From the IMG/VR virus record IMGVR_UViG_3300036818_000105, positions 32,001 to 96,000 of that record: a stretch of 64,000 nucleotides of DNA. The stretch is one strand, 5' to 3'. This DNA comes from a virus. The position numbers were made by a program, and so were the translations under genes. The notes beneath the pieces are model-generated. The model did no database searches. It saw only the letters and a list, made by a program, of their open reading frames with translations, and was not told the origin of the DNA. Shown here one piece after another: positions 3,107-23,492 of the stretch; within the stretch, counting starts at the first letter, position 1, and each line of letters opens with the position of its first letter.

Positions 3107-3394
3107 TCAGATCAGGCGACCGCACCTCGTGCAGAATGAGCCGGGCGGGATGCGGTGCTCGCACGGGGCCTCGCTGGCGGGCTCGGCCGCGCCCGTGCCG
3201 ACGTCCGTGTGCGCCGTGCTGGCCACGGGCTGGCCATCCCGGTCAAAGCGGCTGAGTTCAGCATCAATGGCGCCCTCGACCCAGACTGACCGGGGCGTCT
3301 CGCCGCGCGCCTTGTCGATCGCTTCCGCCTTCGGCTCGCTTACGCGGACCGGGATGACAACTCGCTTGCCCTCAGGGGTCCGTTCTCTCGCCAT
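3107..3394 (-). CDS. Ribbon-helix-helix-like DNA-binding protein with C-terminal Cys/His motif
   Basis: VVIPVRVSEPKAEAIDKARGETPRSVWVEGAI fits the RHH pattern; divergent from tnpB. Confidence 0.65.
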   Translation of the reverse strand: MARERTPEGKRVVIPVRVSEPKAEAIDKARGETPRSVWVEGAIDAELSRFDRDGQPVASTAHTDVGTGAAEPASEAPCEHRIPPGSFCTRCGRLI

Positions 3395-3400
3395 GGAAGG

Positions 3401-3416
3401 AGTATACGCGTATACT
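3401..3416. promoter_or_regulatory. Perfect 16-bp palindrome forming back-to-back -10 boxes for two leaderless genes
   Basis: AGTATACGCGTATACT; TATACT lies 6 nt before GTG 3423 on + and 6 nt before ATG 3394 on -. Confidence 0.75.
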
Positions 3417-3422
3417 GATTGA

Positions 3423-4685
3423 GTGACTATACGGAACCGGCTATACCCCGACGCACGGGCGGAAGCGATCATGCGCGACCTGCACTGTGCGCAAGCCCGG
3501 TACGTGTGGAACCTCTGCGTCGAGCAGGAATCCTGGTGGCGGCGGGACCGCGGGAAGATGCCAACCTGGGTAGAGCGATGCCGCCAGTTGGCTGAGGCGC
3601 GGACTGAGTTTGAGTGGCTTCGCGCGGGCAGTAATGCAGTCCAGCAGCAGGCCATCAGGGACTTCGGACGGGCGATGACCGCCTTCCTTGATCCGAAGAA
3701 CCCGGCTAGAGAGCCAACGTTCCGGAAGGCGGTCCGCGATGAAGGATTTCGCATCGTCGGGGAGCGATCGGGACCGCACGTTTCCTGGGGCCTTCGGCGC
3801 CTGAACCGCAATTGGGGCGAGGTCCGCATCCCGAAGGTCGGCTGGGTCCGCTTCCGCTGGTCTAGGCCAGTTCCGGGAGATGTGAAGTCCTTCCGGGTCA
3901 CCCTTGACCGCGCAGGCCGATGGCACGTCTCGTTTCCGTCTCCGCAGGGCGCCGTCGGCCGTCGGCCGACCGGGGCGGCCGTCGGCATTGACCGGGGCGT
4001 CCGAACTGCCCTGGTCACCTCAGAAGGCCAGCATTTCCGAGTGCCCAGAATTGGCGACCGTGCTGCAGGGCGGTACGTCGCCCTGCAGCGGCGCATGTCC
4101 CGCCAGCAGAAGGGCTCGCGCAAGAGGGAGAAAACCCGGCTGGCAATGGCCCGGATCGCGGTAAGGGTTGCCGACCGGCGCAAGGACTGGGCAGAGAAGG
4201 TCTCCACGCGACTTGTTAGCGACTACGACCTGATCGTGTTCGAAAAGCTGAACGTGGTCCGCATGACTCGCAAGTCTGCACCCAAGTCCGATCCTGATCA
4301 GGTCGGTGCATTCCTTCCCAACAAGGCCCGCGCGAAGGCTGGGCTGAACCGAGGCATCCTCGCGGCATGCTGGGGCATTCTGGCCGCCCGTGCCGAGGAG
4401 AAGGCTGTCGCATCAGGCGTGAGTGTCATCTACGTCAACCCGAGATTCACCTCGCAGCAGTGCCATGCGTGCGGCCACGTGAGCCGGAAGAACCGCGAGA
4501 GCCAAGCGGTATTCCGGTGTGAGTCCTGTGGCCACCATGATCATGCTGACGCGAACGCTGCGAAGAACGTACTTGCCCGGGGGCTAGGCACAATGGCGGT
4601 CCCTGCGCACGCCCCGGGTCACGGGGTGCAACGCCCGCATAAGTCCGCGAGAGCGGCGGCGGGAACCACCCGGAGTGCGACATAA
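3423..4685 (+). CDS. tnpB: RNA-guided endonuclease TnpB (IS200/IS605 family), copy 1
   Basis: ARYVWN N-terminus; RuvC motifs GIDRG, VFEKL, HADANAAKN; zinc finger CHAC...CESC. Confidence 0.93.
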   Translation: MTIRNRLYPDARAEAIMRDLHCAQARYVWNLCVEQESWWRRDRGKMPTWVERCRQLAEARTEFEWLRAGSNAVQQQAIRDFGRAMTAFLDPKNPAREPTFRKAVRDEGFRIVGERSGPHVSWGLRRLNRNWGEVRIPKVGWVRFRWSRPVPGDVKSFRVTLDRAGRWHVSFPSPQGAVGRRPTGAAVGIDRGVRTALVTSEGQHFRVPRIGDRAAGRYVALQRRMSRQQKGSRKREKTRLAMARIAVRVADRRKDWAEKVSTRLVSDYDLIVFEKLNVVRMTRKSAPKSDPDQVGAFLPNKARAKAGLNRGILAACWGILAARAEEKAVASGVSVIYVNPRFTSQQCHACGHVSRKNRESQAVFRCESCGHHDHADANAAKNVLARGLGTMAVPAHAPGHGVQRPHKSARAAAGTTRSAT

Positions 4686-4745
4686 GCACTCCGGGAAATC
4701 CCCGTCCATCAAGTCGGGGAGGATGTCAAATCCAGTACTTCGCGT
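4600..4745 (+). ncRNA. omegaRNA of tnpB #1: scaffold, right end and guide (5' boundary approximate)
   Basis: Stem CCCGGAGTGC/GCACTCCGGG; right end ATCCCC...GGGGAGGATGTCAA ending at 4729; guide from 4730. Confidence 0.75.
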
Positions 4746-4775
4746 GGCAGTGCCCGAGGTGACAGGAGGATCGCC

Positions 4776-15484: not shown

Positions 15485-16078
15485 ATGACCACGCAAACAC
15501 CCCGCAGCCGCGGCGGCAACGGCAAGTTCACCCGCGCCGCCGAGAGCCGCAAGCGCGACTGCCGTGCCGCCGAGCTCCACGGGCAGGGCTGGTCCTACCA
15601 GCGGATCGCCGACGAGCTCGGGTTCGCGTCCAAGGGCCACGCGCACAACGGCGTGATGCGCGCCTACGCCGACATGTGCACCGAGGAGGCGGGGCAGGCC
15701 CGGCAGGCCGACCTTGACCGCATCGACCGGCTCATCGAGCAGGCGTGGCAGGTGATGCTGACCCCGCACCTGACCGTGAACAACGGCAAGGTCATCCGCC
15801 ACTTCGCGGGCTTCGAGCGCGACGAGGACGGCATCGAGCGCCTCGACATGGACGGCAAGCCGATCCCGGTCTTCGTGGACGTGCTCGACGACGGCCCGAG
15901 GCTCGCCGCGGTCGGCGTCATCAAGGGGCTGCTCGAGCGCCGGGCGAGGATCTTCGGCTACGACGCCCCCGCCAAGTCCCGCGTCGAGGTGATCACGGCC
16001 GACATGGTCGAGTCGCAGATCGCCGACCTCGAGTCCCAACTGGCCCGCAATGACCCCGCTGGTCCAGGCACCCCCTGA
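15485..16078 (+). CDS. terS: Terminase small subunit
   Basis: HTH GWSYQRIADELGF; LLERRARIFGYDAP; directly upstream of terL. Confidence 0.8.
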   Translation: MTTQTPRSRGGNGKFTRAAESRKRDCRAAELHGQGWSYQRIADELGFASKGHAHNGVMRAYADMCTEEAGQARQADLDRIDRLIEQAWQVMLTPHLTVNNGKVIRHFAGFERDEDGIERLDMDGKPIPVFVDVLDDGPRLAAVGVIKGLLERRARIFGYDAPAKSRVEVITADMVESQIADLESQLARNDPAGPGTP

Positions 16079-18818
16079 CCGCCTGCGGTACCTGCTGGAG
16101 CTCCAGCGCCGCGCCGCGAGGATCAAGCACGGGATCACCAGGTACTACGACGACCCGGTCGGCTTCGCGCGTGACTGCATCGACTGGGGCGACAGCGAGG
16201 GCCTGACCGAGTACCAGGAGGAGATCCTCGACGGGATTCCCCGCCGCAAGCGCGTCGCGGTACGAGGCCCCCACGGGCTCGGCAAGGCGCTAGAATTGAG
16301 TGTGCGCATACCCACCCCTTCCGGCTGGTCGACCATCGGCGGCCTGCGCGTCGGCGACGAGGTTTTCGACGAGCACGGCAAGCCCTGCCGGGTGACGGGC
16401 AAGTCGCCCGTATGGCACGGCGACACGTACGAAGTCGAGTTTGCGGACAAGACCGTCATCACCGCTCACGGCGAGCACGAGTGGAACGCAGTCGACGTCT
16501 ACCACCGCCCGAAGACACCGAAGCCAGACCGGCGGCCTGTGCCCGTTTCGGACTGGCGCGACCACTGGGTATCGACTAGGCGCGTCACTACCGCGTACAT
16601 GGCGGAGCACATGCTCTCGCCTGGCGGTCAGCTTCGGTGGCGCATCCCGGCAGCACGCCCGCTGGAGCTACGTGCCGCCGACCTGCCGGTTGACCCGTAC
16701 ATCCTTGGGTACTGGCTCGGTGACGGATCGTCGAGGGGCGCCCAGATAACGATCTGCGCCAGCGACTGGCCGAGCCTGCAAGAGCGCCTGAAGGATGCCG
16801 GGTATCACCATGGCGAGCCCCGGCCGCATAAGGCCAGCCCGTCAACCTTCTCAGTGGGCGTCTCCACGCAGCCGGTGCGCCGTGGCGGCGGCCAGCATGA
16901 CACGCTGGCGCTCAGGCTCCGCAATCTCGGCGTCCTCGGCAATAAGCACATCCCGGTGATCTACCAGCGGGCATCCGCGGCGCAGCGCATGGAGGTTGTG
17001 CGCGGACTGTGGGACTCGGACGGCTACCGGCAGGCTGGCGGCAGCGACGAGATCACGCTCACCTGCAAGCCGCTAGCGGATGACGTAGCTGAGCTGCTGC
17101 GGTCTCTCGGCCTGGTGGTCCGGGTAAGCGAAAGCGACTCCAAGATTGACGGGCGCGTGGTCGGCCGCAGGTGGCGCATCGCCGCCCGGTTCGACTTCAA
17201 CCCCTACCGTCTTGCGCGCTACGACTGGGAGCCCCGCGGCCGGCAGTCCTCTCGCCACACCCAGCGGACGATCACGGATATCCGCAGGGTGGCCGACAAG
17301 CCGACCCAGTGCATCGAGGTGGACTCGCCGTCGCACCTGTACCTCGCTGGCGACTCAATGATCCCGACGCACAACTCCGGGATAGCGGCCATCGCCGTCC
17401 ACTGGTTCGCCCTGACGCGGGACGCGGCCGGCGTCGACTGGAAGATCCCTGCGACCGCCGGGTCATGGCACCAGCTGACCCAGTACCTGTTCCCTGAGAT
17501 CCACAAGTGGGCCGGGCGCCTGCGATGGGACAAGGTGCGGGACGGCCGCCCGTTCTCCCGCGCGCACGAGCTCCAGAACCTGAACCTGCGCCTGGCGCAC
17601 GGCTCCGCCTTCGCGGGGGCATCGGCGAACGCGGCGCTGATCGAGGGCGCGCACGCCGACTCGCTGCTGTTCCTGTTCGACGAGGGAAAGGCCATCCCGG
17701 CCGCCACGTTCGACGCATGTGAGGGCGCCCTCGGCGGCACGGGCGAGGCCTTCGCCCTGATCCTGTCAACGCCGGGGGCACCGTCAGGGCGCTTCTACGA
17801 CATCTGCGCGCGCAAGCCCGGCTACGAGGACTGGCACCCTGTCCACGTCACCCTCGAGCGCGCGATCGCCGCCGGGCGCATCAGCGAGGAGTGGGCTGAG
17901 CAGCGCGCCCGTCAGTGGGGCACCGAGTCGGCGATCTACCAGAACCGCGTCCTGGGCGAGTTCTACGCCAGTGACGAGGACTCGGTTATCCCCCTCGCGT
18001 GGGCGGAGGCGGCGGTTGCCCGCTGGCACGCCTGGGACGAGGCCGGGCGTCCGGAACCGGGCAGGCCGCGCACGGTTGGCGTGGACGTGGCCCGCACCGG
18101 CCAGGACCGCACGGTCCTCGCCCTCCGCAACGGCCCGGTGATCACGGAGCTGCGCCGGTCGGTGAAGGAAGACACGATGCAGACCACCGGCCGCGTGAAG
18201 GGCATCCTTGACGCCGACGACTCGGTTACCGCCGTGGTCGACGTGATCGGCATCGGCGCAGGCGTCGTTGACCGCCTCCGCGAGCAGCACGCCCGGGTGC
18301 TGGCTTTCAACGCCTCCCGCGGGTCGAAGGCGAAGGACAGCACGAGGGAGTTCGGCTTCGCGAACCGCCGGAGTGAGGCGTGGTGGACGATGAGGCAGGC
18401 GCTGGACCCGTCGAGCGACCCGGATATCTGCTTCCCTGACGACGAGATGCTGCTCGGTGACCTCTCGGCACCGCAGTGGAAAGTCACGTCATCCGGAAGG
18501 ATCGCGGTGGAGACTAAAGAGGAGATCGCCAAGCGCCTAGGCCGGTCAACTGACGACGGTGACGCGGTAATTCAGGCTTTCGTCCCGCACCTCGGCGAGT
18601 CTTCGCCGGGCACCGTCCGCAAGTGGGCCGGGTCCGTCGAGCTCGACAGCATGGGCGTGAGCGAGGAAACGAAGGCTCACCGCCGCATGAGGGAGATCGC
18701 GGGCAAGGCGGCCGAGGGACTTGAGGACGCGCCGTGGGATCTCGACGGATTCTCGCCGCAGGACGGCGATGACAGACCGCAGGGCGGGCGACGGGGCAAC
18801 GTCCGGACGTGGCAGTAG
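16050..18818 (+). CDS. terL: Terminase large subunit containing an intein
   Basis: Walker A GPHGLGK|S split by the intein; Walker B LFDE; ILSTP; nuclease motifs GVDVARTGQD and RSTDDGDA. Confidence 0.93.
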   Translation: MTPLVQAPPDRLRYLLELQRRAARIKHGITRYYDDPVGFARDCIDWGDSEGLTEYQEEILDGIPRRKRVAVRGPHGLGKALELSVRIPTPSGWSTIGGLRVGDEVFDEHGKPCRVTGKSPVWHGDTYEVEFADKTVITAHGEHEWNAVDVYHRPKTPKPDRRPVPVSDWRDHWVSTRRVTTAYMAEHMLSPGGQLRWRIPAARPLELRAADLPVDPYILGYWLGDGSSRGAQITICASDWPSLQERLKDAGYHHGEPRPHKASPSTFSVGVSTQPVRRGGGQHDTLALRLRNLGVLGNKHIPVIYQRASAAQRMEVVRGLWDSDGYRQAGGSDEITLTCKPLADDVAELLRSLGLVVRVSESDSKIDGRVVGRRWRIAARFDFNPYRLARYDWEPRGRQSSRHTQRTITDIRRVADKPTQCIEVDSPSHLYLAGDSMIPTHNSGIAAIAVHWFALTRDAAGVDWKIPATAGSWHQLTQYLFPEIHKWAGRLRWDKVRDGRPFSRAHELQNLNLRLAHGSAFAGASANAALIEGAHADSLLFLFDEGKAIPAATFDACEGALGGTGEAFALILSTPGAPSGRFYDICARKPGYEDWHPVHVTLERAIAAGRISEEWAEQRARQWGTESAIYQNRVLGEFYASDEDSVIPLAWAEAAVARWHAWDEAGRPEPGRPRTVGVDVARTGQDRTVLALRNGPVITELRRSVKEDTMQTTGRVKGILDADDSVTAVVDVIGIGAGVVDRLREQHARVLAFNASRGSKAKDSTREFGFANRRSEAWWTMRQALDPSSDPDICFPDDEMLLGDLSAPQWKVTSSGRIAVETKEEIAKRLGRSTDDGDAVIQAFVPHLGESSPGTVRKWAGSVELDSMGVSEETKAHRRMREIAGKAAEGLEDAPWDLDGFSPQDGDDRPQGGRRGNVRTWQ
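16287..17375 (+). mobile_element. Class 3 intein (363 aa) with LAGLIDADG homing endonuclease
   Basis: Starts ALELSVRIPTPSGW, ends IPTHN/S; W-C-T triad (HEW, TQCIEVD, PTHN); YILGYWLGDG and RGLWDSDG. Confidence 0.9.
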
Positions 18819-18832
18819 GCAGGCCGACCCGC

Positions 18833-19237
18833 CTACATGAACTCCACGTCCTCCCCGGCCGCCGCTGCCTTCCGTAGCCCGTCGATGAACCGCTCAGTGT
18901 TTTCCCGCGCGCGGTAGACCGCGCCGTCCAGCAGCGGCAGCAGCTGCTCTAGCCGGTCCGCGAGGTGAGCGCCGTGCTGCGGGTGAATGACCCCGTCGCA
19001 GTCCGAGTGAACGAGCAGGAACAGCAGCGGGTCGTCTCCGGGGATGGCGTCCCACTCGCCCAGGTAGTTCTTGTCCTCGAACATCTCCCACGGCAGTTCG
19101 TAGTACGCCTCGCCGCGCAGGACGTTAGGCGTTCTGTCGCTGACCTGGTACCCCGCCGCCCTGGCCACCTCGCGCCGCCACCGCTGGAACCCGCCGTACG
19201 GCCCGTGCCAGCACTCGTGACTGGTGTCTAGTCCCAC
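18833..19237 (-). CDS. Conserved hypothetical phage protein
   Basis: MGLD...GPYGGFQRWR...LLVHSDCDG. Confidence 0.7.
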   Translation of the reverse strand: MGLDTSHECWHGPYGGFQRWRREVARAAGYQVSDRTPNVLRGEAYYELPWEMFEDKNYLGEWDAIPGDDPLLFLLVHSDCDGVIHPQHGAHLADRLEQLLPLLDGAVYRARENTERFIDGLRKAAAAGEDVEFM

Positions 19238-19259: not shown

Positions 19260-19550
19260 TCAGGCCGGGCCCTCCCCTTCCGCCGCGAACTGCTCCGGGT
19301 GGGCGATGGCGTACCGGGCCACTATCAGCTCGTGCTCGCTCAGGTATTCAGGGTCAAAGACGTAGACCCGGCGCGGCGTCCCCGGCTGGTCGCACTCGGG
19401 GCCCCCGTCCCGGTGGACCGCGTCACTGGCGAAGTGACGGTGGAACGGCCCCCACGACTCCGGCCACTTGCCGGCTCGCTCAGCCTTGTCGCGGTCGGCC
19501 TCCCACGGCGTGCGGGTGTCCTGGTCGTCCTCTGGGTCCGGGGTGCTCAT
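19260..19550 (-). CDS. Hypothetical protein, paralog of the C-terminal half of 9159..9659
   Basis: Sequence near-identity to 9405-9623. Confidence 0.75.
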   Translation of the reverse strand: MSTPDPEDDQDTRTPWEADRDKAERAGKWPESWGPFHRHFASDAVHRDGGPECDQPGTPRRVYVFDPEYLSEHELIVARYAIAHPEQFAAEGEGPA

Positions 19551-19801
19551 GACTTCCTCCGGTTGCTGGTCACCACGGGCTCGAACTCGGCCGTCCAGCC
19601 CTCAGTGCCACGGTAGACGGTAACCGGGGCGTTCTTCGGCGCGAACGCCGCGCCTTCCATGCGGACCACCCCGATGCCGGGCAGCGTGATGCCGTCTCCG
19701 GCTAGGGCGTACTCGCCCGGGAGGTAGCGCGTCCCGCACCGTTCGTGACCCGGCCCTTGGCAGCGTCCCGTCCCGGCGACACGGCAGCGCCACTCAGGCA
19801 T
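19547..19801 (-). CDS. Hypothetical protein
   Basis: Coupled within a leftward operon. Confidence 0.5.
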   Translation of the reverse strand: MPEWRCRVAGTGRCQGPGHERCGTRYLPGEYALAGDGITLPGIGVVRMEGAAFAPKNAPVTVYRGTEGWTAEFEPVVTSNRRKS

Positions 19802-20156
19802 TGCCGTCAGCCCCTTCCCCCGGCGCGAACTTAGCGGCCTCTCGCTCGATGTCCGGGTTGTCCTCAGCCGACTCCAGTACGAGCGATGCGCCGCGCTGGA
19901 GCCGGTTGGCGAGCACGAGCGCGTCTTCGGCCGTGAGCAGGACAGAGGAGACGCTCGGCGTGCCGTCCCCGTCCTCGCTGTTGATGACCAGTCCGACCAT
20001 GCCGGGGTCATGTGCCGCGTCCCCGCAGTGCTCGCAGGTAGACGCGCCCTCAGGCTCGTAGACGTGCTCGACGATGATCACGGTGTCTTCGTCAGGGTGG
20101 ACGCACCCGAGGATGCGTGAGCGGATTCTGATGCCGCCGGGCTCGTTGTCACTCAT
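19794..20156 (-). CDS. Hypothetical protein, probably leaderless
   Basis: TATACT lies 7 nt before ATG 20156 on the minus strand. Confidence 0.65.
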   Translation of the reverse strand: MSDNEPGGIRIRSRILGCVHPDEDTVIIVEHVYEPEGASTCEHCGDAAHDPGMVGLVINSEDGDGTPSVSSVLLTAEDALVLANRLQRGASLVLESAEDNPDIEREAAKFAPGEGADGNA

Positions 20157-20225
20157 AAGCCAGAGTATACCCGGATATTGCCGCTTCACTGTGTAGTGCG
20201 CACGTTCATCATGTAGAATAAGGTC

Positions 20226-20471
20226 ATGACCGACGCTAGCCCGGTTGCCATCCAGCGAGCCATCGCGGCCAACATCCGAGCCGAACGCGCCCGCGCCCGG
20301 CTCTCTCAGCAGGCCGTGGCAGACGCCATGCAGAAGCGCGGGTTCGCCTACTGGCGCCAGCAGACAACCGGAGCGACCGAACGCGGCGAGCGCCGGATAA
20401 CCGCCGATGAACTGACCGCACTCGCCGCCGTATTCGGCACCGCGCCGGAGACGCTCTGGCGGATGCCGTGA
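20226..20471 (+). CDS. XRE-family HTH regulator
   Basis: NIRAERARARLSQQAVADAM...ERGERRITADELTALAAVFG; TAGAAT lies 6 nt before the ATG. Confidence 0.85.
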   Translation: MTDASPVAIQRAIAANIRAERARARLSQQAVADAMQKRGFAYWRQQTTGATERGERRITADELTALAAVFGTAPETLWRMP

Positions 20472-21658
20472 GGCGGGCCTACAAGTTCCTCGCATACCCG
20501 ACGCGACCCCAGGAGGGCCGCTCGGGCGCGCTGCTGCGCGACCACTGCGACCTGTACGACGCCGCGCTCGAGGAACGCCGCGAGGCGTGGCGGATGCGGA
20601 AAGCTCCGGTGTCCTACGGCATGCAGTCTGCCCAGCTCAAGGAGATCCGAGCGGCCGACCCGGACGGGCAGGGGAGGCACTCGTTCACCGCCCAGCAGCA
20701 AACCCTGCGCAGGCTCAACGACGCGTTCGTTATGTTCTACAAGCGGTGCAAGATCCCGGGCAAGAAGCCGGGCTACCCGAGGTTCAAGCCGTACGCCCGG
20801 TTCGATCAGGTCCGGTTCGTCGCCGGAGACGGTGCGAAGTGGACCCCGGCGAACGGCATTGGCTGGGCACGCGCCTACTTCCAGGCGGTCGGCTCGGTCA
20901 AGGTGAAGCAGCACCGGCCGGTGACGGGCACCGTCAAGGCGCTCCAACTCAAGCGGGAGCACCGCCGCTGGTACGTCATCGTCATCACCGAAACTGAGCC
21001 GGTGCCGCTGCCCCCGGCGGGCCGTGAAGTCGGCGTAGACGTGGGGGTGGTGCGGTTCCTGACCACCTCGGACGGCGGGATCGTGGCCAATCCGCGTTTC
21101 TTCGCCGCGTCGGCCGGGGTGATCGCGGACTTGCAGCGCCGCATGAACCGCGCCAGGCCGGGTTCGGGGAACCGCAAGCGGATCAGGCGCGCCCTGGCCC
21201 GGGAGCACCGCAAGGTCAGGAACTCCCGCCGCGACTTCCACCACAAGACCGCGCGAATTCTCATTGACGAGTGTGACGTGATCGCCCTGGAAGACCTCAA
21301 CACGGAAGGGATGACCAGGCGTCCCAAACCGAAGCCCGACCCGGACAAGCCGGGCGAGCACCTCCCGAACGGGGCCGCCTCCAAGGCCGGCCTGAACAAG
21401 TCGATACGCGACGCGGGCTGGGCACAGTTCATGAGCATCATCGTCGGCAAGGCTGAGAGCGCCGGCCGGCGAGTGATCCTGGTGGACCCGCGGAACACGA
21501 GCATCGACTGTCACCAGTGCGGGCGAAGATGCGAGCGCCCGCAGCAGGACACGGTTATCTGCCCCGCGCACGGCGCGATGGACGCCGACGTGAACGGGGC
21601 CAGAAACATCGCCAGCAGGGCCGGGCTGGGCTCTGGTCAGGCCGCGCGAGCGGCCTGA
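20468..21658 (+). CDS. tnpB: RNA-guided endonuclease TnpB, copy 2
   Basis: RAYKFLAYPT; RuvC motifs GVDVG, ALEDL, DADVNGARNI; zinc finger; GTGA-coupled to the XRE gene. Confidence 0.93.
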   Translation: MRRAYKFLAYPTRPQEGRSGALLRDHCDLYDAALEERREAWRMRKAPVSYGMQSAQLKEIRAADPDGQGRHSFTAQQQTLRRLNDAFVMFYKRCKIPGKKPGYPRFKPYARFDQVRFVAGDGAKWTPANGIGWARAYFQAVGSVKVKQHRPVTGTVKALQLKREHRRWYVIVITETEPVPLPPAGREVGVDVGVVRFLTTSDGGIVANPRFFAASAGVIADLQRRMNRARPGSGNRKRIRRALAREHRKVRNSRRDFHHKTARILIDECDVIALEDLNTEGMTRRPKPKPDPDKPGEHLPNGAASKAGLNKSIRDAGWAQFMSIIVGKAESAGRRVILVDPRNTSIDCHQCGRRCERPQQDTVICPAHGAMDADVNGARNIASRAGLGSGQAARAA

Positions 21659-21711
21659 GAAGGTGGCGGAGCGATCCGCCATAGCAGTCACCCAGTTTTC
21701 CAGATACGTCG
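21590..21711 (+). ncRNA. omegaRNA of tnpB #2 (5' boundary approximate); right end at TCAC 21691, guide from 21692
   Basis: Hairpin TGGCGGA-GCGA-TCCGCCA followed by TAGCAGTCAC. Confidence 0.75.
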
Positions 21712-21727
21712 ACGACTTCTTTCTCTC

Positions 21728-21774
21728 CTCCCTGCTGCACGGCGGCGAAAGCCCCGCCGCCAGGCAGCAGGGAG
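21728..21774 (+). terminator. GC-rich hairpin just downstream of the guide
   Basis: CTCCCTGCTGC...GCAGCAGGGAG with an inner GGCGG/CCGCC stem. Confidence 0.55.
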
Positions 21775-21812
21775 CGTGACCGGCACTGCCTCCGCACGCT
21801 AGCCTGTGAGCG

Positions 21813-21847
21813 TGCACGTGCATTCGTCGCGTGCAGATGCACACGCT
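21813..21847 (+). promoter_or_regulatory. Late-promoter-like motif, copy 3 (portal; third box degenerate)
   Basis: TGCACGTGCA-N7-CGTGCA-GA-TGCACAC. Confidence 0.65.
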
Positions 21848-21875
21848 AGCGGCGGAGAGGAGGTGATGCTTGGGT

Positions 21876-23492
21876 ATGGTCGACACTCGCTCCGCAAATG
21901 TCGTCGCCTTCCCCGACCTCGCGCCGAAGGGCTCTCGCGGCCCCAGCGGCAAGCGGGCCCTTTTGGGTCCAGAGGTAGGGACGTCGTTCGATTACGGACA
22001 GCGCTTGTTCGCCTACTATTAGTTAAGGCGAAGGAGATGTGTTCGACTACGGCTTAGCGAATTTTCCGCTCGTGACTACAAAACGATGTTGTCCCGTAAC
22101 GGAATGTGCGCGGCCATCGAGCAGGTACTCACTCTCCCGATCAGGGGCGCCCCGTACACCATCGAGCCCGCCAAGGGTGACCAGGGCGAGGCCGAGTTCG
22201 TGACCAGCGTTCTCATGACAGCCGACGAGGACGGCGGCATGAAAACACCTATCAGCACGCTGGTCGGCCAGATTACGAGCGCGCAGATTTTCCGTCGCGC
22301 CTTCTTCGAACGTACTTACAAGGTTCGCGAATCCGACGGCAAGATCATTTACGACAAGGTGGCCTTTCGCCCCCCCGCGACCTGTCAGGCCAGGTACAAC
22401 GACCGTACGGGCGAGCCGAACGGGTTCCGTCAGCAGGTCTGGTTGTTCGGCGGGAACTTGATGCTCAACCGCACTCAGAAGGTTCCCGGCTACGTCGACA
22501 TCCCGAAAATCAGGAGCTACATATACACCCACGGGAAACACAGGGAACCTCTCACTGGTGTCAGTGAGATGGAAACGGCCTACTGGTGCTACCAGACCCA
22601 GGCGAAGCTAGCCTACCTATGGCTCAGCTTTCTCGAGGGAATGGCGATGCAGCGCCTCGTCGTCTACGGCAACGACCAGCCGGAGGCATCCCAGCGAGCG
22701 GATGACATCTCCCAGCTGCGCGGTTCCGGCATTGTCGGCCTTATCCACCCGATCGACGGGCAGAAGTCGTTCGAGGCCCTCCCCACGGCCGCGGACGCGG
22801 GCGCCCAGTTCGCGGCGTGCATGACGTACCTGGAGAACTGGGCAGCCAGCAGCGTCCTCGCCGGCTTCCTGCAGCTTTCCGGCGCGGCGGCGAAGGGCAC
22901 CCGGGCGGGCGGCGGCGCCAGTGCCGGCTCCTACGGCATGAGCGAGGACCAGAGCTCGTACTACCTGGCCTCCCGTGAGGCGGCGGCAACGGAGATAGCG
23001 GACAGTATCTCCCATGACCTGATCCGCCCCCTGGTGACCCTGAACTTCGGCGCGGACGCGGCGTTCCCGAAGTGGAAGTTCGGCCCGTTGCAGGAGGCCA
23101 TGACGGCCGTACTTTTCACCATGTTCGGGCAGCTAGCCGCCGCCCCCAAATTGAACCTGCCCCTCGCGTTCGTGGACCTCCTCACCGAGCGGATGGCGGT
23201 GATCCTGAACCTGGACGCGGACCAGATTCACGAGTCGCTGGTGAATACCGCGTCGCAGCGGGCGGAGGCGCTGGCGGGCAATCCCCCGCCCGGCATACCC
23301 CCGGAGGCCGCGGCGGGACTGGGGCAGTTGCAGGGGCTGGCGCAGGCGGGGACGTCGATCGCGCAGCAGGCGATAGCGAGGAACGGCGGGCCGCCGACGC
23401 CGCCGAAGGTGACCATGCCGCCGGCCGGGCCGCCCGCGCCCCCGCCCAAGCCGCCGATGGCCGGGGGACTCGCGGGGGCGGCGGCGCAGTGA
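21876..23492 (+). CDS. Portal protein; 5' part interrupted by 7-nt and 5-nt inserts (uninterrupted ORF is 22086..23492)
   Basis: Position after terL; ISHDLIRPLVTLNFG typical of Mu gp29/DUF935-type portals; AGGAGG RBS before ATG 21876, in frame with 22086. Confidence 0.8.

What the first reader, a model, noticed from the sequence alone, without database searches (positions are those of the whole stretch)
20226..21774. XRE-tnpB #2 is a self-contained regulated operon, not an IS
Seen: a TAGAAT -10 box with a leaderless XRE gene, GTGA translational coupling to tnpB, then right end, guide and a strong hairpin (21728-21774). There is no tnpA or left end, and the unit sits between terL and portal where free-standing homing endonucleases commonly lie. 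Both tnpBs in the window are therefore paired with a dedicated small DNA-binding gene. Inference: a regulator + TnpB + omegaRNA cassette that moves by cleavage and recombination rather than transposition.
Basis: partly seen in the sequence, partly recalled or inferred. Interest (0 to 1): 0.7.

Follow-up and report, generated by a model that had tools for sequence, protein, structure and literature searches.

The report
Phage TnpB aimed at rivals' portal
A soil phage carries a transposase-less RNA-guided DNA cutter (TnpB) that is fused behind one of the phage's own small regulator genes, and its guide matches the portal gene of rival phages but not its own, so it probably spreads or competes like a homing endonuclease.

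Summary
An 81-aa XRE gene (20226-20471) overlaps tnpB (20468-21658) by GTGA. The right end stops at 21691, a guide follows, and a -41.6 kcal/mol hairpin lies at 21728-21774. There is no tnpA and no left end.

The XRE gene is not a TnpB-specific partner:
- Sibling phages (L055, L057) carry it with a 16-aa longer tail and other genes behind it, one an HNH/NUMOD3 endonuclease.
- 0 of 80 bacterial relatives of this TnpB have it, and 38 of 80 have a Y1 TnpA there instead.
- The hairpin is a positional backbone terminator.

Spread by cleavage plus recombination gains real support:
- The 19-nt guide matches the antisense strand of the portal gene 1.1 kb downstream (17/19 in this phage, 18/19 in sibling L015; 0 of 2000 shuffles do as well).
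- The match starts exactly at the right end and spans one guide length.
- Siblings have a CCAT motif beside the target. This is the motif that flanks the left end in 14 of 16 bacterial copies.
- This phage's own portal reads CTGC there (Met to Ala).

No cleavage or RNA was shown. First-stage notes on this genome report the same guide match, and unchecked scan reports describe similar transposase-less phage TnpBs on other DNA.

The parts
19794..20156 (-). Backbone gene of 120 aa, divergent from the XRE gene. A TATACT box on the minus strand (20164-20169) lies 7 nt before its ATG. My searches used 19794-20165, which adds three extra codons.
   Evidence: Homologues are in L055 (71% aa) and L052 (67% aa). 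No Pfam or PHROG family matched.
20214..20219 (+). TAGAAT -10-like hexamer, 6 nt before the XRE ATG. It suggests a leaderless mRNA.
   Evidence: Sequence. TAnnnT hexamers sit at the same place in L055 and L057. It was not flagged by the consensus scan. Function is inferred.
20226..20471 (+). XRE-family HTH gene in its short form. It is a resident phage gene whose 3' end was replaced by the tnpB junction.
   Evidence: HTH_31 scores 30 bits and phrog_3 'transcriptional repressor' matches at E = 5e-5. Short and long forms are shown in alignment A1. Homology to L057 ends at 20462.
20460..20471 (+). Junction. XRE homology ends at about 20462, IS homology starts at 20463-20469, and the XRE stop overlaps the tnpB start as GTGA.
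20468..21658 (+). tnpB, 396 aa, of an actinobacterial IS605 lineage. The RuvC residues D191, E275 and D374 and the zinc-finger residues C348, C351 and C365 are invariant.
21507..21691 (+). Predicted omegaRNA scaffold. It overlaps the 3' end of tnpB and ends at the right end (GCAGTCAC).
   Evidence: RNAalifold on 20 copies predicts 39 pairs, 12 of them with compensatory changes. The right-end boundary comes from 19 of 19 bacterial copies. There is no Rfam hit.
21692..21710 (+). Guide, 19 nt. It is the reverse complement of portal codons T-Y-L-E-N-W.
21728..21774 (+). Strong hairpin, probably the terminator that ends the XRE-tnpB-omegaRNA transcript. It is a positional backbone feature.
22086..23492 (+). 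Portal gene (Portal_Mu).
22823..22847 (-). This phage's own, immune copy of the target. The protospacer (22823-22841) matches the guide at 17/19. The TAM position reads GGCTGC, where siblings read GGCCAT.
   Evidence: Abundant soil alleles read ATG at 22842-22844 and T at 22829.

Best explanation
What it is. A tnpB gene with its omegaRNA, taken from an IS605 lineage common in soil Actinomycetota, has lost its transposase and left end. It is fused to the 3'-truncated XRE regulator gene that this phage lineage already had. This anatomy is shown.

How it is expressed. The pair is probably transcribed as one leaderless mRNA from the XRE -10 box. tnpB would be translated by GTGA coupling. The omegaRNA would be cut from the 3' end of the same transcript, which stops at the backbone hairpin 37 nt after the right end. 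These steps are inferred.

What the guide points at. The 19-nt guide is not the element's own empty site. It is the antisense of portal codons TYLENW, 1.1 kb downstream. In sibling phages that sequence sits next to CCAT, the inferred TAM of this TnpB family. In this phage the portal has lost the TAM (Met to Ala) and carries two silent mismatches, one of them in the seed. This is shown in sequence.

Proposed mechanism (inferred). During co-infection TnpB cuts the portal gene of susceptible relatives. Repair from the resistant genome copies the portal allele and, by co-conversion, the XRE-tnpB unit. This is RNA-guided 'intronless homing' or marker exclusion.
For: Anatomy:
- IS homology runs only from 20463-20469 to 21691-21696 in 20 bacterial copies.
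- The right end is defined by 19 of 19 copies.
- The left end or tnpA is present in the bacterial copies but absent here.
- D-E-D is intact and the omegaRNA shows covariation.

The XRE gene is resident:
- L055 has the neighbouring backbone gene, the XRE gene, two PHROG ORFs and then portal.
- L057 has the XRE gene, an HNH/NUMOD3 gene and then portal.

The unit is old and kept intact:
- Eight short-form XRE proteins (68-89% identical) stop within a few residues after the shared LWR motif, where the window's stop is supplied by the tnpB junction.
- XRE and TnpB homologues share contig lengths of 1756 and 5933 nt.
- A starred clade holds eight TnpBs, including the window's (quick tree).

Guide:
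- It matches this phage's own portal at 17/19.
- 0 of 2000 composition-preserving shuffles reach 2 or fewer mismatches anywhere in the 124-kb genome.
- The match starts at the first base after the right end and ends after 19 nt. Both mismatches are silent third positions.

TAM:
- 14 of 16 resolved left-end junctions read CCAT (the others TCAT and CTAT).
- The CAT is the antisense of genuine start codons. In 5 of 8 flank ORFs the Pfam domain starts at profile position 1-2.

Targets:
- 14 sibling loci have CCAT or TCAT beside a protospacer with 1-4 mismatches.
- L015 (mismatch at position 13) and L010 (positions 13 and 14) have a perfect 12-nt seed.
- 25 of 28 close portal proteins have Met at the TAM codon.
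- Abundant alleles in soil metagenome runs read ATG and TAT.

Context:
- The same slot holds an HNH gene (L057) and a canonical IS605 (L053).
- Inteins sit in terL (this window) and in portal (L052, L057).
Against: - No cleavage, RNA or inheritance data exist.
- No sibling in hand matches the guide at 19/19. The best is 18/19.
- The TAM is inferred from insertion flanks and, for the hairpin geometry, from a recalled IS608 rule. It was not measured.
- The TAM-less Ala allele also occurs in L016-L021. These show no TnpB2 homologue in up to 8 kb upstream. It also occurs in 3 of 28 close portal proteins. It is therefore not exclusive to carriers.
- I could not fetch DNA for the other putative XRE-tnpB contigs, so I do not know whether their guides also point at portal.
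- No contig joint that skips the cassette was seen, and no near-isogenic carrier/non-carrier pair was available for co-conversion tracts.
- How a guide-length piece of inverted portal sequence got behind the right end is unexplained.
- tnpB #1 shows no comparable target in my scan.
Confidence: 0.55

Rival explanations
1. Stranded transposon relic. An IS605 copy landed just after or inside the 3' end of the XRE gene, and a deletion then removed the left end (and tnpA if it was present). The remnant is passively expressed and does nothing useful. The guide-portal likeness is only a historical scar.
For: Canonical IS605 insertions do occur in this slot. L053 has tnpA, and L017 and L021 hold its empty site. 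The XRE tail is missing. A similar 'relic' reading was given by an earlier scan report on other DNA (e1-3265216, unchecked).
Against: - The ORF and the D-E-D residues are intact, and the clade has diverged by up to 15% amino-acid difference without decay.
- Eight diverged short-form XRE alleles imply long persistence.
- A relic does not predict a guide-length match that starts at the right end, a TAM in siblings, and TAM loss in the carrier itself.
Confidence: 0.2
2. The XRE gene is a dedicated controller that belongs to the cassette, and XRE-tnpB-omegaRNA moves as one self-contained unit.
For: Tight GTGA coupling and a shared promoter. Probable further XRE-TnpB pairs. Regulators inside IS605 elements are known: Arc in Moon et al. 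2026, of which I read the abstract and sections 5, 6 and 9.
Against: - XRE homologues occur without TnpB in 24 of 24 fetched loci that carry one. These were 13 viral and 11 metagenomic loci, and some are the same contig fetched twice.
- None of 80 bacterial TnpB relatives has the XRE gene.
- Homology with L055 runs on from the neighbouring backbone gene through the XRE gene.
Confidence: 0.12
3. Domesticated RNA-guided regulator (TldR-like). TnpB2 binds without cutting and tunes portal or another gene.
For: It has no transposase, its guide points at a gene rather than at its own empty site, and a regulator gene is upstream. TldR precedent: bioRxiv 10.1101/2023.11.30.569447, of which I saw only the abstract in the search listing.
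Against: The RuvC residues D191, E275 and D374 are invariant. This phage's own portal lacks the TAM and has a seed mismatch, so its own gene should not be bound.
Confidence: 0.05
4. Chance. The guide-portal likeness is a coincidence in a GC-rich genome.
For: 162 of 3000 random genomic 19-mers have a partner with 2 or fewer mismatches somewhere in the genome, and 20 of 3000 have one within 1.5 kb. GC-rich flanks gave several such hits.
Against: - 0 of 2000 shuffles of this 50%-GC guide reach 2 or fewer mismatches.
- The match starts exactly at the right end and has the length of a guide.
- Its mismatches are silent.
- Siblings carry the inferred TAM beside it.
Confidence: 0.05

Closest known systems
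IS200/IS605-family TnpB with omegaRNA (OMEGA; transposon 'restorative homing', Meers et al., PMC10055086, abstract seen in the search listing; ISDra2 recalled)
   Same: Same Pfam domains, RuvC D-E-D and zinc finger. The omegaRNA scaffold overlaps the 3' end of tnpB and ends at a hairpin-bearing right end, with the guide directly behind it. The closest relatives are bona fide IS605 and IS1341-type copies, up to 78-79% identical, in Actinomycetota MAGs.
   Different: There is no TnpA and no left end, so it cannot transpose. The guide is not the sequence of its own empty site but a piece of a gene 1.1 kb away, in inverted orientation. Expression is borrowed from a phage gene.
Free-standing homing endonucleases of phages (Seg/Mob of T4; 'intronless homing' and marker exclusion, as summarised in PMC13565253, passages read)
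   Same: A nuclease gene sits between conserved genes and is present or absent among siblings. Its target lies in a nearby conserved essential gene. The donor is protected by substitutions at the site. The expected spread is by double-strand-break repair with co-conversion.
   Different: Recognition would be by a 19-nt RNA guide plus a TAM rather than by the protein. That review lists TnpB only under transposon restorative and non-restorative homing, which tell alleles apart by presence or absence of the transposon, not by substitutions.
Arc (RHH)-regulated IS605 elements (Moon, Zedaveinyte, Wiegand, Sternberg, bioRxiv 10.64898/2026.09.24.754181; abstract and sections 5, 6 and 9 read)
   Same: A small DNA-binding protein gene lies next to tnpB and probably controls the promoter that drives it. 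The divergent arrangement with a palindrome matches tnpB #1 of this window.
   Different: For tnpB #2 the protein is an XRE-type HTH, not an RHH. It is co-directional and translationally coupled. It lies outside any transposon boundary and exists in siblings without TnpB.
TldR, nuclease-dead TnpB exapted as an RNA-guided repressor (bioRxiv 10.1101/2023.11.30.569447; abstract in the search listing only)
   Same: A transposase-less TnpB whose guide points at a specific gene.
   Different: TldR has lost its catalytic residues. TnpB2 keeps D191, E275 and D374.
The canonical IS605 in sibling phage L053
   Same: It occupies the same terL-portal hot spot and is a TnpB with a guide.
   Different: L053 has a Y1 TnpA (142 bits), and its guide matches the uninterrupted site in L017 and L021. 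That is the textbook layout, which the window's element lacks.

Membership tests
Complete IS200/IS605 insertion sequence | Y1 transposase TnpA | tested here: not met
   There is no TnpA hit in the window's unit. The XRE gene occupies that position. 38 of 80 bacterial relatives have a TnpA within 200 nt upstream.
Complete IS200/IS605 insertion sequence | Left end with subterminal hairpin next to the target/TAM | tested here: not met
   Homology to bacterial copies begins at 20463-20469. The ~180-190 nt left end seen in L069, L079, L082 and others is absent.
Complete IS200/IS605 insertion sequence | Right end with hairpin and conserved terminal motif | tested here: met
   The hairpin and the GCAGTCAC motif end at 21691, as in 19 of 19 bacterial copies (one of which ends GCAGTCAT). 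The stem shows compensatory changes.
TnpB-omegaRNA (OMEGA) RNA-guided nuclease | OrfB_IS605 and TNB domains above the curated cut-offs | tested here: met
   84.2 bits against a cut-off of 30.5, and 59.1 against 26.3.
TnpB-omegaRNA (OMEGA) RNA-guided nuclease | RuvC D-E-D catalytic triad and zinc finger | tested here: met
   D191, E275, D374, C348, C351 and C365 are invariant in 17 sequences. The fourth zinc ligand is His368, as in part of the family.
TnpB-omegaRNA (OMEGA) RNA-guided nuclease | Structured RNA scaffold overlapping the gene's 3' end, with the guide behind the right end | tested here: met
   39 predicted pairs, 12 of them with compensatory changes. No Rfam family reached its threshold.
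TnpB-omegaRNA (OMEGA) RNA-guided nuclease | RNA-guided, TAM-dependent DNA cleavage | not testable with these tools
   This needs an interference or in-vitro assay.
Free-standing (intronless) homing endonuclease | Present or absent among siblings at one locus between conserved genes | tested here: met
   L055, L057, L010, L044 and L051 lack it, and the slot content differs between them.
Free-standing (intronless) homing endonuclease | Target in a nearby conserved gene of non-carriers, with the carrier protected by substitutions | tested here: met
   In sequence only. Siblings have CCAT or TCAT plus a protospacer. This phage's own portal has CTGC and a seed mismatch.
Free-standing (intronless) homing endonuclease | Co-conversion of flanks or biased inheritance | not tested
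XRE-family transcriptional regulator | HTH_31/HTH_3 domain | tested here: met
   HTH_31 scores 30 bits against a cut-off of 27. HTH_3 scores 22.4, just under its cut-off of 23.
XRE-family transcriptional regulator | Binds an operator at its own promoter | not testable with these tools
   No inverted repeat of 8 nt or more was found in 20100-20300.
Arc-regulated IS605 element | RHH (Arc) protein encoded inside the transposon, divergent from tnpB | tested here: not met
   For tnpB #2 the neighbour is an HTH, is co-directional, and lies outside any transposon boundary. For tnpB #1 the divergent ORF has no Pfam or PHROG match.
TldR (nuclease-dead TnpB repressor) | Loss of RuvC catalytic residues | tested here: not met
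   The triad is intact.

The most novel reading that the evidence does not exclude
TnpB2 is a natural RNA-guided free-standing homing endonuclease, or gene drive, of phages. It is a transposon nuclease that has given up transposition. Its guide has been re-aimed from its own insertion site to an essential neighbouring gene of rival phages. Its carrier is protected by TAM loss, and it is timed by a captured phage regulator. That would be a living intermediate between transposon-bound guides and freely programmable inter-virus weapons of the CRISPR type.
Probability: 0.5. Interest if true: 0.85.

Novelty: new variant of a known kind. Interest (0 to 1): 0.7.

Why it matters
TnpB is known as a helper that restores its own transposon after excision. 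If this reading holds, a TnpB without any transposon machinery acts between phage genomes. It would tell rival from self by a TAM and a few silent changes in an essential gene, as protein homing endonucleases do.

This gives a directly testable case, because the guide, the candidate TAM, and susceptible and resistant natural alleles are all in hand. It bears on three questions:
- How RNA-guided nucleases leave transposons and become programmable weapons.
- What drives mosaicism around the terminase and portal genes.
- Why silent 'recoding' patches appear in conserved phage genes.

The negative part also matters. The neighbouring regulator is a resident phage gene that was captured by fusion, not a cassette component.

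Tried and rejected
Searches that found nothing:
- Rfam at gathering thresholds and a tRNA scan.
- Megablast of the locus against GenBank phages. At protein level TnpB2 hits 252 phage records, all under 60% identity, and the XRE protein hits none.
- A degenerate right-end-plus-guide pattern in IMG/VR.
- Other copies of either omegaRNA scaffold in the 124-kb genome.

Runs and contigs:
- No RNA holder was listed among the sequencing runs.
- Only contigs could be laid, and none joins across the cassette. The joints listed there are short and look spurious.

tnpB #1 as a replicate:
- Its right end is at 4729.
- I found no target with 4 or fewer mismatches in 20 nt, or 2 or fewer in 18 nt, in this genome.
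- No relatives of that gene were found in IMG/VR.
- The guides of L171 and L172 gave only low-complexity matches.

Other points:
- The consensus promoter scan is uninformative for -10-only actinobacterial promoters.
- The careful tree did not finish, so the quick tree is used.
- I considered the alternative TAM reading CCATCAR. I rejected it because CAT is the start codon of the flanking genes and because the portal match begins right after CCAT.
- I did not ask for supplements of papers. The supplementary tables of Moon et al. (neighbour genes of regulators) and of the TnpB surveys may list HTH-TnpB pairs that I could not see.
- 'Not in print' rests on searches of the held library only.
Full report
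Setting. The window is bases 32001-96000 of a 124,491-bp IMG/VR virus record with direct terminal repeats. GC content is 70.7%. No cultured phage in GenBank is close.

The local gene order is:
- terL, 16050-18818. It carries a LAGLIDADG intein.
- Three minus-strand genes at 18833-19237, 19260-19550 and 19794-20156.
- The XRE gene, 20226-20471.
- tnpB, 20468-21658.
- A small conserved ORF at about 21876-22022.
- portal, 22086-23492 (Portal_Mu).

A second tnpB lies at 3423-4685. It is 34% identical to the first.

Observation.
- The XRE protein passes the HTH_31 cut-off.
- TAGAAT lies at 20214-20219, 6 nt before the ATG. L055 and L057 have TAnnnT hexamers in the same position.
- The XRE stop and the tnpB start overlap as GTGA.
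- TnpB has both Pfam domains and the invariant residues D191, E275 and D374.
- The hairpin at 21728-21774 folds at -41.6 kcal/mol, with z = -5.4.

Origin of tnpB. TnpB2 belongs to a very large family. 4912 proteins had E <= 0.001 among the 8000 candidates scored. The best hits are 92% and 85% identical, and then there are many at 74-79%.

In one-genome-per-species bacterial contigs, 80 loci were kept. Identity reaches 78%. They are mostly Actinomycetota MAGs, and some genomes hold several copies.
- 38 of 80 have a Y1 TnpA ending within 200 nt upstream on the same strand.
- 0 of 80 have an XRE homologue.
- Copies without TnpA carry about 180-190 nt of conserved left end with a hairpin.
- Four of six distant viral relatives also have a TnpA directly upstream (motif read by eye).

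Nucleotide homology between the window and 20 bacterial copies begins at 20463-20469 and ends at 21691-21696. All 19 copies examined end in the GCAGTCAC motif (one reads GCAGTCAT) and diverge immediately afterwards. So the phage holds exactly 'tnpB start codon to right end', with no left end and no tnpA.

The 3' 185 nt fold into conserved stems. There are 39 predicted pairs, 12 of them with compensatory changes. This fits an omegaRNA scaffold.

The XRE gene. Its homologues are few: 12 proteins. None of the 24 fetched loci that carry one has a TnpB2 relative (13 viral and 11 metagenomic, some duplicated).
- In L055 the order is backbone gene (minus strand), XRE gene, two ORFs of unknown function (phrog_4652 and phrog_15946), small ORF, portal.
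- In L057 it is XRE gene, a 233-aa HNH-like protein with a NUMOD3 motif (phrog_314, homing endonuclease), small ORF, portal with an intein.
- DNA homology with L055 runs from 19550 to 20435 and resumes at 21906.
- DNA homology with L057 runs from 20259 to 20462 and resumes at 21893.

The XRE proteins fall into two classes:
- A long form with about 16 extra C-terminal residues: L055, L057, P0129, P0130 and P0132.
- A short form that stops within a few residues after the shared LWR motif, where the window's stop is supplied by the tnpB start region: the window, P0122-P0128 and P0131.

Hence tnpB replaced the tail of a resident gene. The short-form proteins are 68-89% identical to the window's.

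Two pairs share contig lengths, so further XRE-tnpB pairs probably exist. They are the XRE P0125 with the TnpB P0137 (1756 nt), and the XRE P0126 with the TnpB P0027 (5933 nt).

In a quick ML tree the window's TnpB sits in a starred clade of eight, nested among the bacterial IS605 copies.

The hairpin. Siblings with unrelated inserts have equally strong GC-rich hairpins 380-400 nt before the portal ATG:
- L055: -48 kcal/mol
- L012: -46
- L009: -45.6
- L053: -43.9
- L010: -32.8

The window's hairpin lies 365 nt before the ATG. It is therefore a positional backbone terminator that happens to end the XRE-tnpB transcript 37 nt after the right end.

The guide. The 19 nt after the right end (21692-21710) are the reverse complement of portal 22823-22841, codons T-Y-L-E-N-W. 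Identity is 17/19. Both mismatches are silent third positions. The likeness starts at the first base after the right end and stops after 19 nt.

None of 2000 composition-preserving shuffles of the guide finds a site with 2 or fewer mismatches in the genome. Random genomic 19-mers do so in 162 of 3000 cases, and in 20 of 3000 within 1.5 kb.

Sibling portal genes match at 1-4 mismatches. L015 has one, at position 13. L010 has two, at positions 13 and 14. Both keep a perfect 12-nt seed.

The TAM. In 16 bacterial copies with a resolvable left junction the flank ends CCAT (14), TCAT (1) or CTAT (1). Three of the 19 copies (L070, L074, L080) were not resolved.

This CAT is the antisense of the start codon of the neighbouring gene. 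In 5 of 8 flank ORFs tested, the Pfam domain begins at profile position 1-2 within 20 residues of that Met. So CCAT belongs to the flank, not to the element.

With that boundary the left hairpin foot lies 19 nt from the junction. The four bases before the hairpins (GGGA on the left, GAAG on the right) fit the IS608 base-pairing rule as I recall it. That rule is recalled, not tested here.

The target in siblings and in this phage:
- Fourteen sibling loci read GCCAT or GTCAT directly 5' of the protospacer on the guide-identical strand.
- The window and L016-L021 read GCTGC. This is a Met-to-Ala change.

Among the 28 closest portal proteins, 25 have Met and 3 have Ala. Contigs from soil-metagenome runs show abundant alleles with ATG at 22842-22844 and T at 22829. 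Both changes go towards the guide and the TAM.

Mechanism. Shown in sequence:
- An intact nuclease gene with its scaffold and a guide.
- A candidate target with a TAM in siblings.
- Loss of the TAM plus a seed mismatch in the carrier.
- Presence or absence of the unit among siblings, in a slot that also collects an HNH gene, a canonical IS605 and inteins.

Inferred:
- Transcription from the XRE promoter.
- Coupling of translation.
- Release of the omegaRNA from the mRNA 3' end.
- Cleavage of rival portal genes in mixed infection.
- Repair that copies the resistant portal allele and the cassette.

Unexplained: how an inverted, guide-length piece of portal came to lie behind the right end.

Results against the reading:
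- No 19/19 target is in hand.
- The Ala allele also occurs without the cassette.
- There are no RNA or cleavage data.
- tnpB #1 gives no clear parallel.

Contrast. L053 carries a textbook IS605 in the same slot. It has a Y1 TnpA (142 bits), and its guide equals the uninterrupted site in L017 and L021. The window's unit differs in exactly those respects.

Literature.
- Regulators inside IS605 elements are known: the Arc RHH repressor (Moon et al., bioRxiv 10.64898/2026.09.24.754181). I read the abstract and sections 5, 6 and 9.
- A 2026 review (PMC13565253, passages read) treats TnpB under restorative homing and a largely theoretical 'non-restorative' homing. Both tell alleles apart by presence or absence of the transposon. 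It keeps substitution-based intronless homing for protein endonucleases.
- Six full-text searches found no paper describing a phage TnpB aimed at a neighbouring gene of rivals.

Earlier notes of this scan.
- They report the same guide match on this genome (e1-6160175 and e1-6160158; I found it independently and saw the notes only).
- They also report similar transposase-less phage TnpBs on other genomes (e1-5821677, e1-5860911, e1-3265216, e1-5939859). Those are unchecked leads, not support.

Verdict. The unit is a new variant of known kinds: a TnpB-omegaRNA module working like a free-standing homing endonuclease and expressed through a captured resident XRE gene.

Noticed in passing
window 16050-18818: TerL (922 aa) carries a LAGLIDADG intein at about residues 80-441. 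The four siblings in which both TerL halves are visible (L010, L021, L044, L051) lack it.
   Followed up: partly
L052:6883-7959 and L057:3066-4256: Sibling portal genes carry an intein after about residue 167-178. It is 26-29% identical to the window's TerL intein.
   Followed up: no
window 21876-22085, and the same stretch in L009-L057: A conserved peptide series runs into the portal start...AFPDLxPKGS..GKRALxGPExGT / SFDxGQRLFAYY / GEGDVF / DYG / EFSARDYKTM. In different siblings it is broken at different joints by 4-13-nt inserts that contain stop codons. As a result the blocks lie in different frames. In L051 the last blocks are in frame with portal, and in L053 a compensated frame change leaves one long ORF. 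This could be recoding, escape scars or frameshifting. It is unexplained.
   Followed up: partly
window 21797-21851: An imperfect 22-nt inverted repeat (77% complementary) lies in the conserved leader before the small ORF and portal. Related GCACGTGCA motifs occur in siblings.
   Followed up: no
window 3107-4749: tnpB #1 also lacks a left end. Homology to L171, L172 and L160 runs from about 3432-3436 to 4729, and the right end is ...GGATGTCAA. It shares a 28-nt spacer holding a perfect 16-nt palindrome with a divergent 95-aa ORF that has no Pfam or PHROG match. Its guide resembles codons 6-9 of the next gene at only 11/13, as a first-stage note says.
   Followed up: partly
L171:3737-3952 and L171:5268-5330: A phage relative of tnpB #1 has a divergent HTH_17 (Xis-like) gene upstream. 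The last 14 nt of its right end are repeated once, 16 nt further on. This resembles a minimal repeat-spacer-repeat unit.
   Followed up: no
L053:2899-4582 versus L017 and L021: A canonical IS605 (divergent Y1 tnpA and tnpB) lies upstream of portal in one sibling. The empty site is preserved in two others.
   Followed up: partly
L068-L087 (bacterial loci): This IS605 lineage inserts directly against the ATG of housekeeping genes in antisense orientation (target CCAT = antisense of ATGG). Examples are the start codons of pyrophosphatase, ribulose-phosphate epimerase, an SDR, an aldo/keto reductase and a class I tRNA synthetase.
   Followed up: partly
L052:5744-6322: In this sibling the slot between the backbone gene and portal holds a different XRE-type HTH gene on the opposite strand (read by eye).
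   Followed up: no
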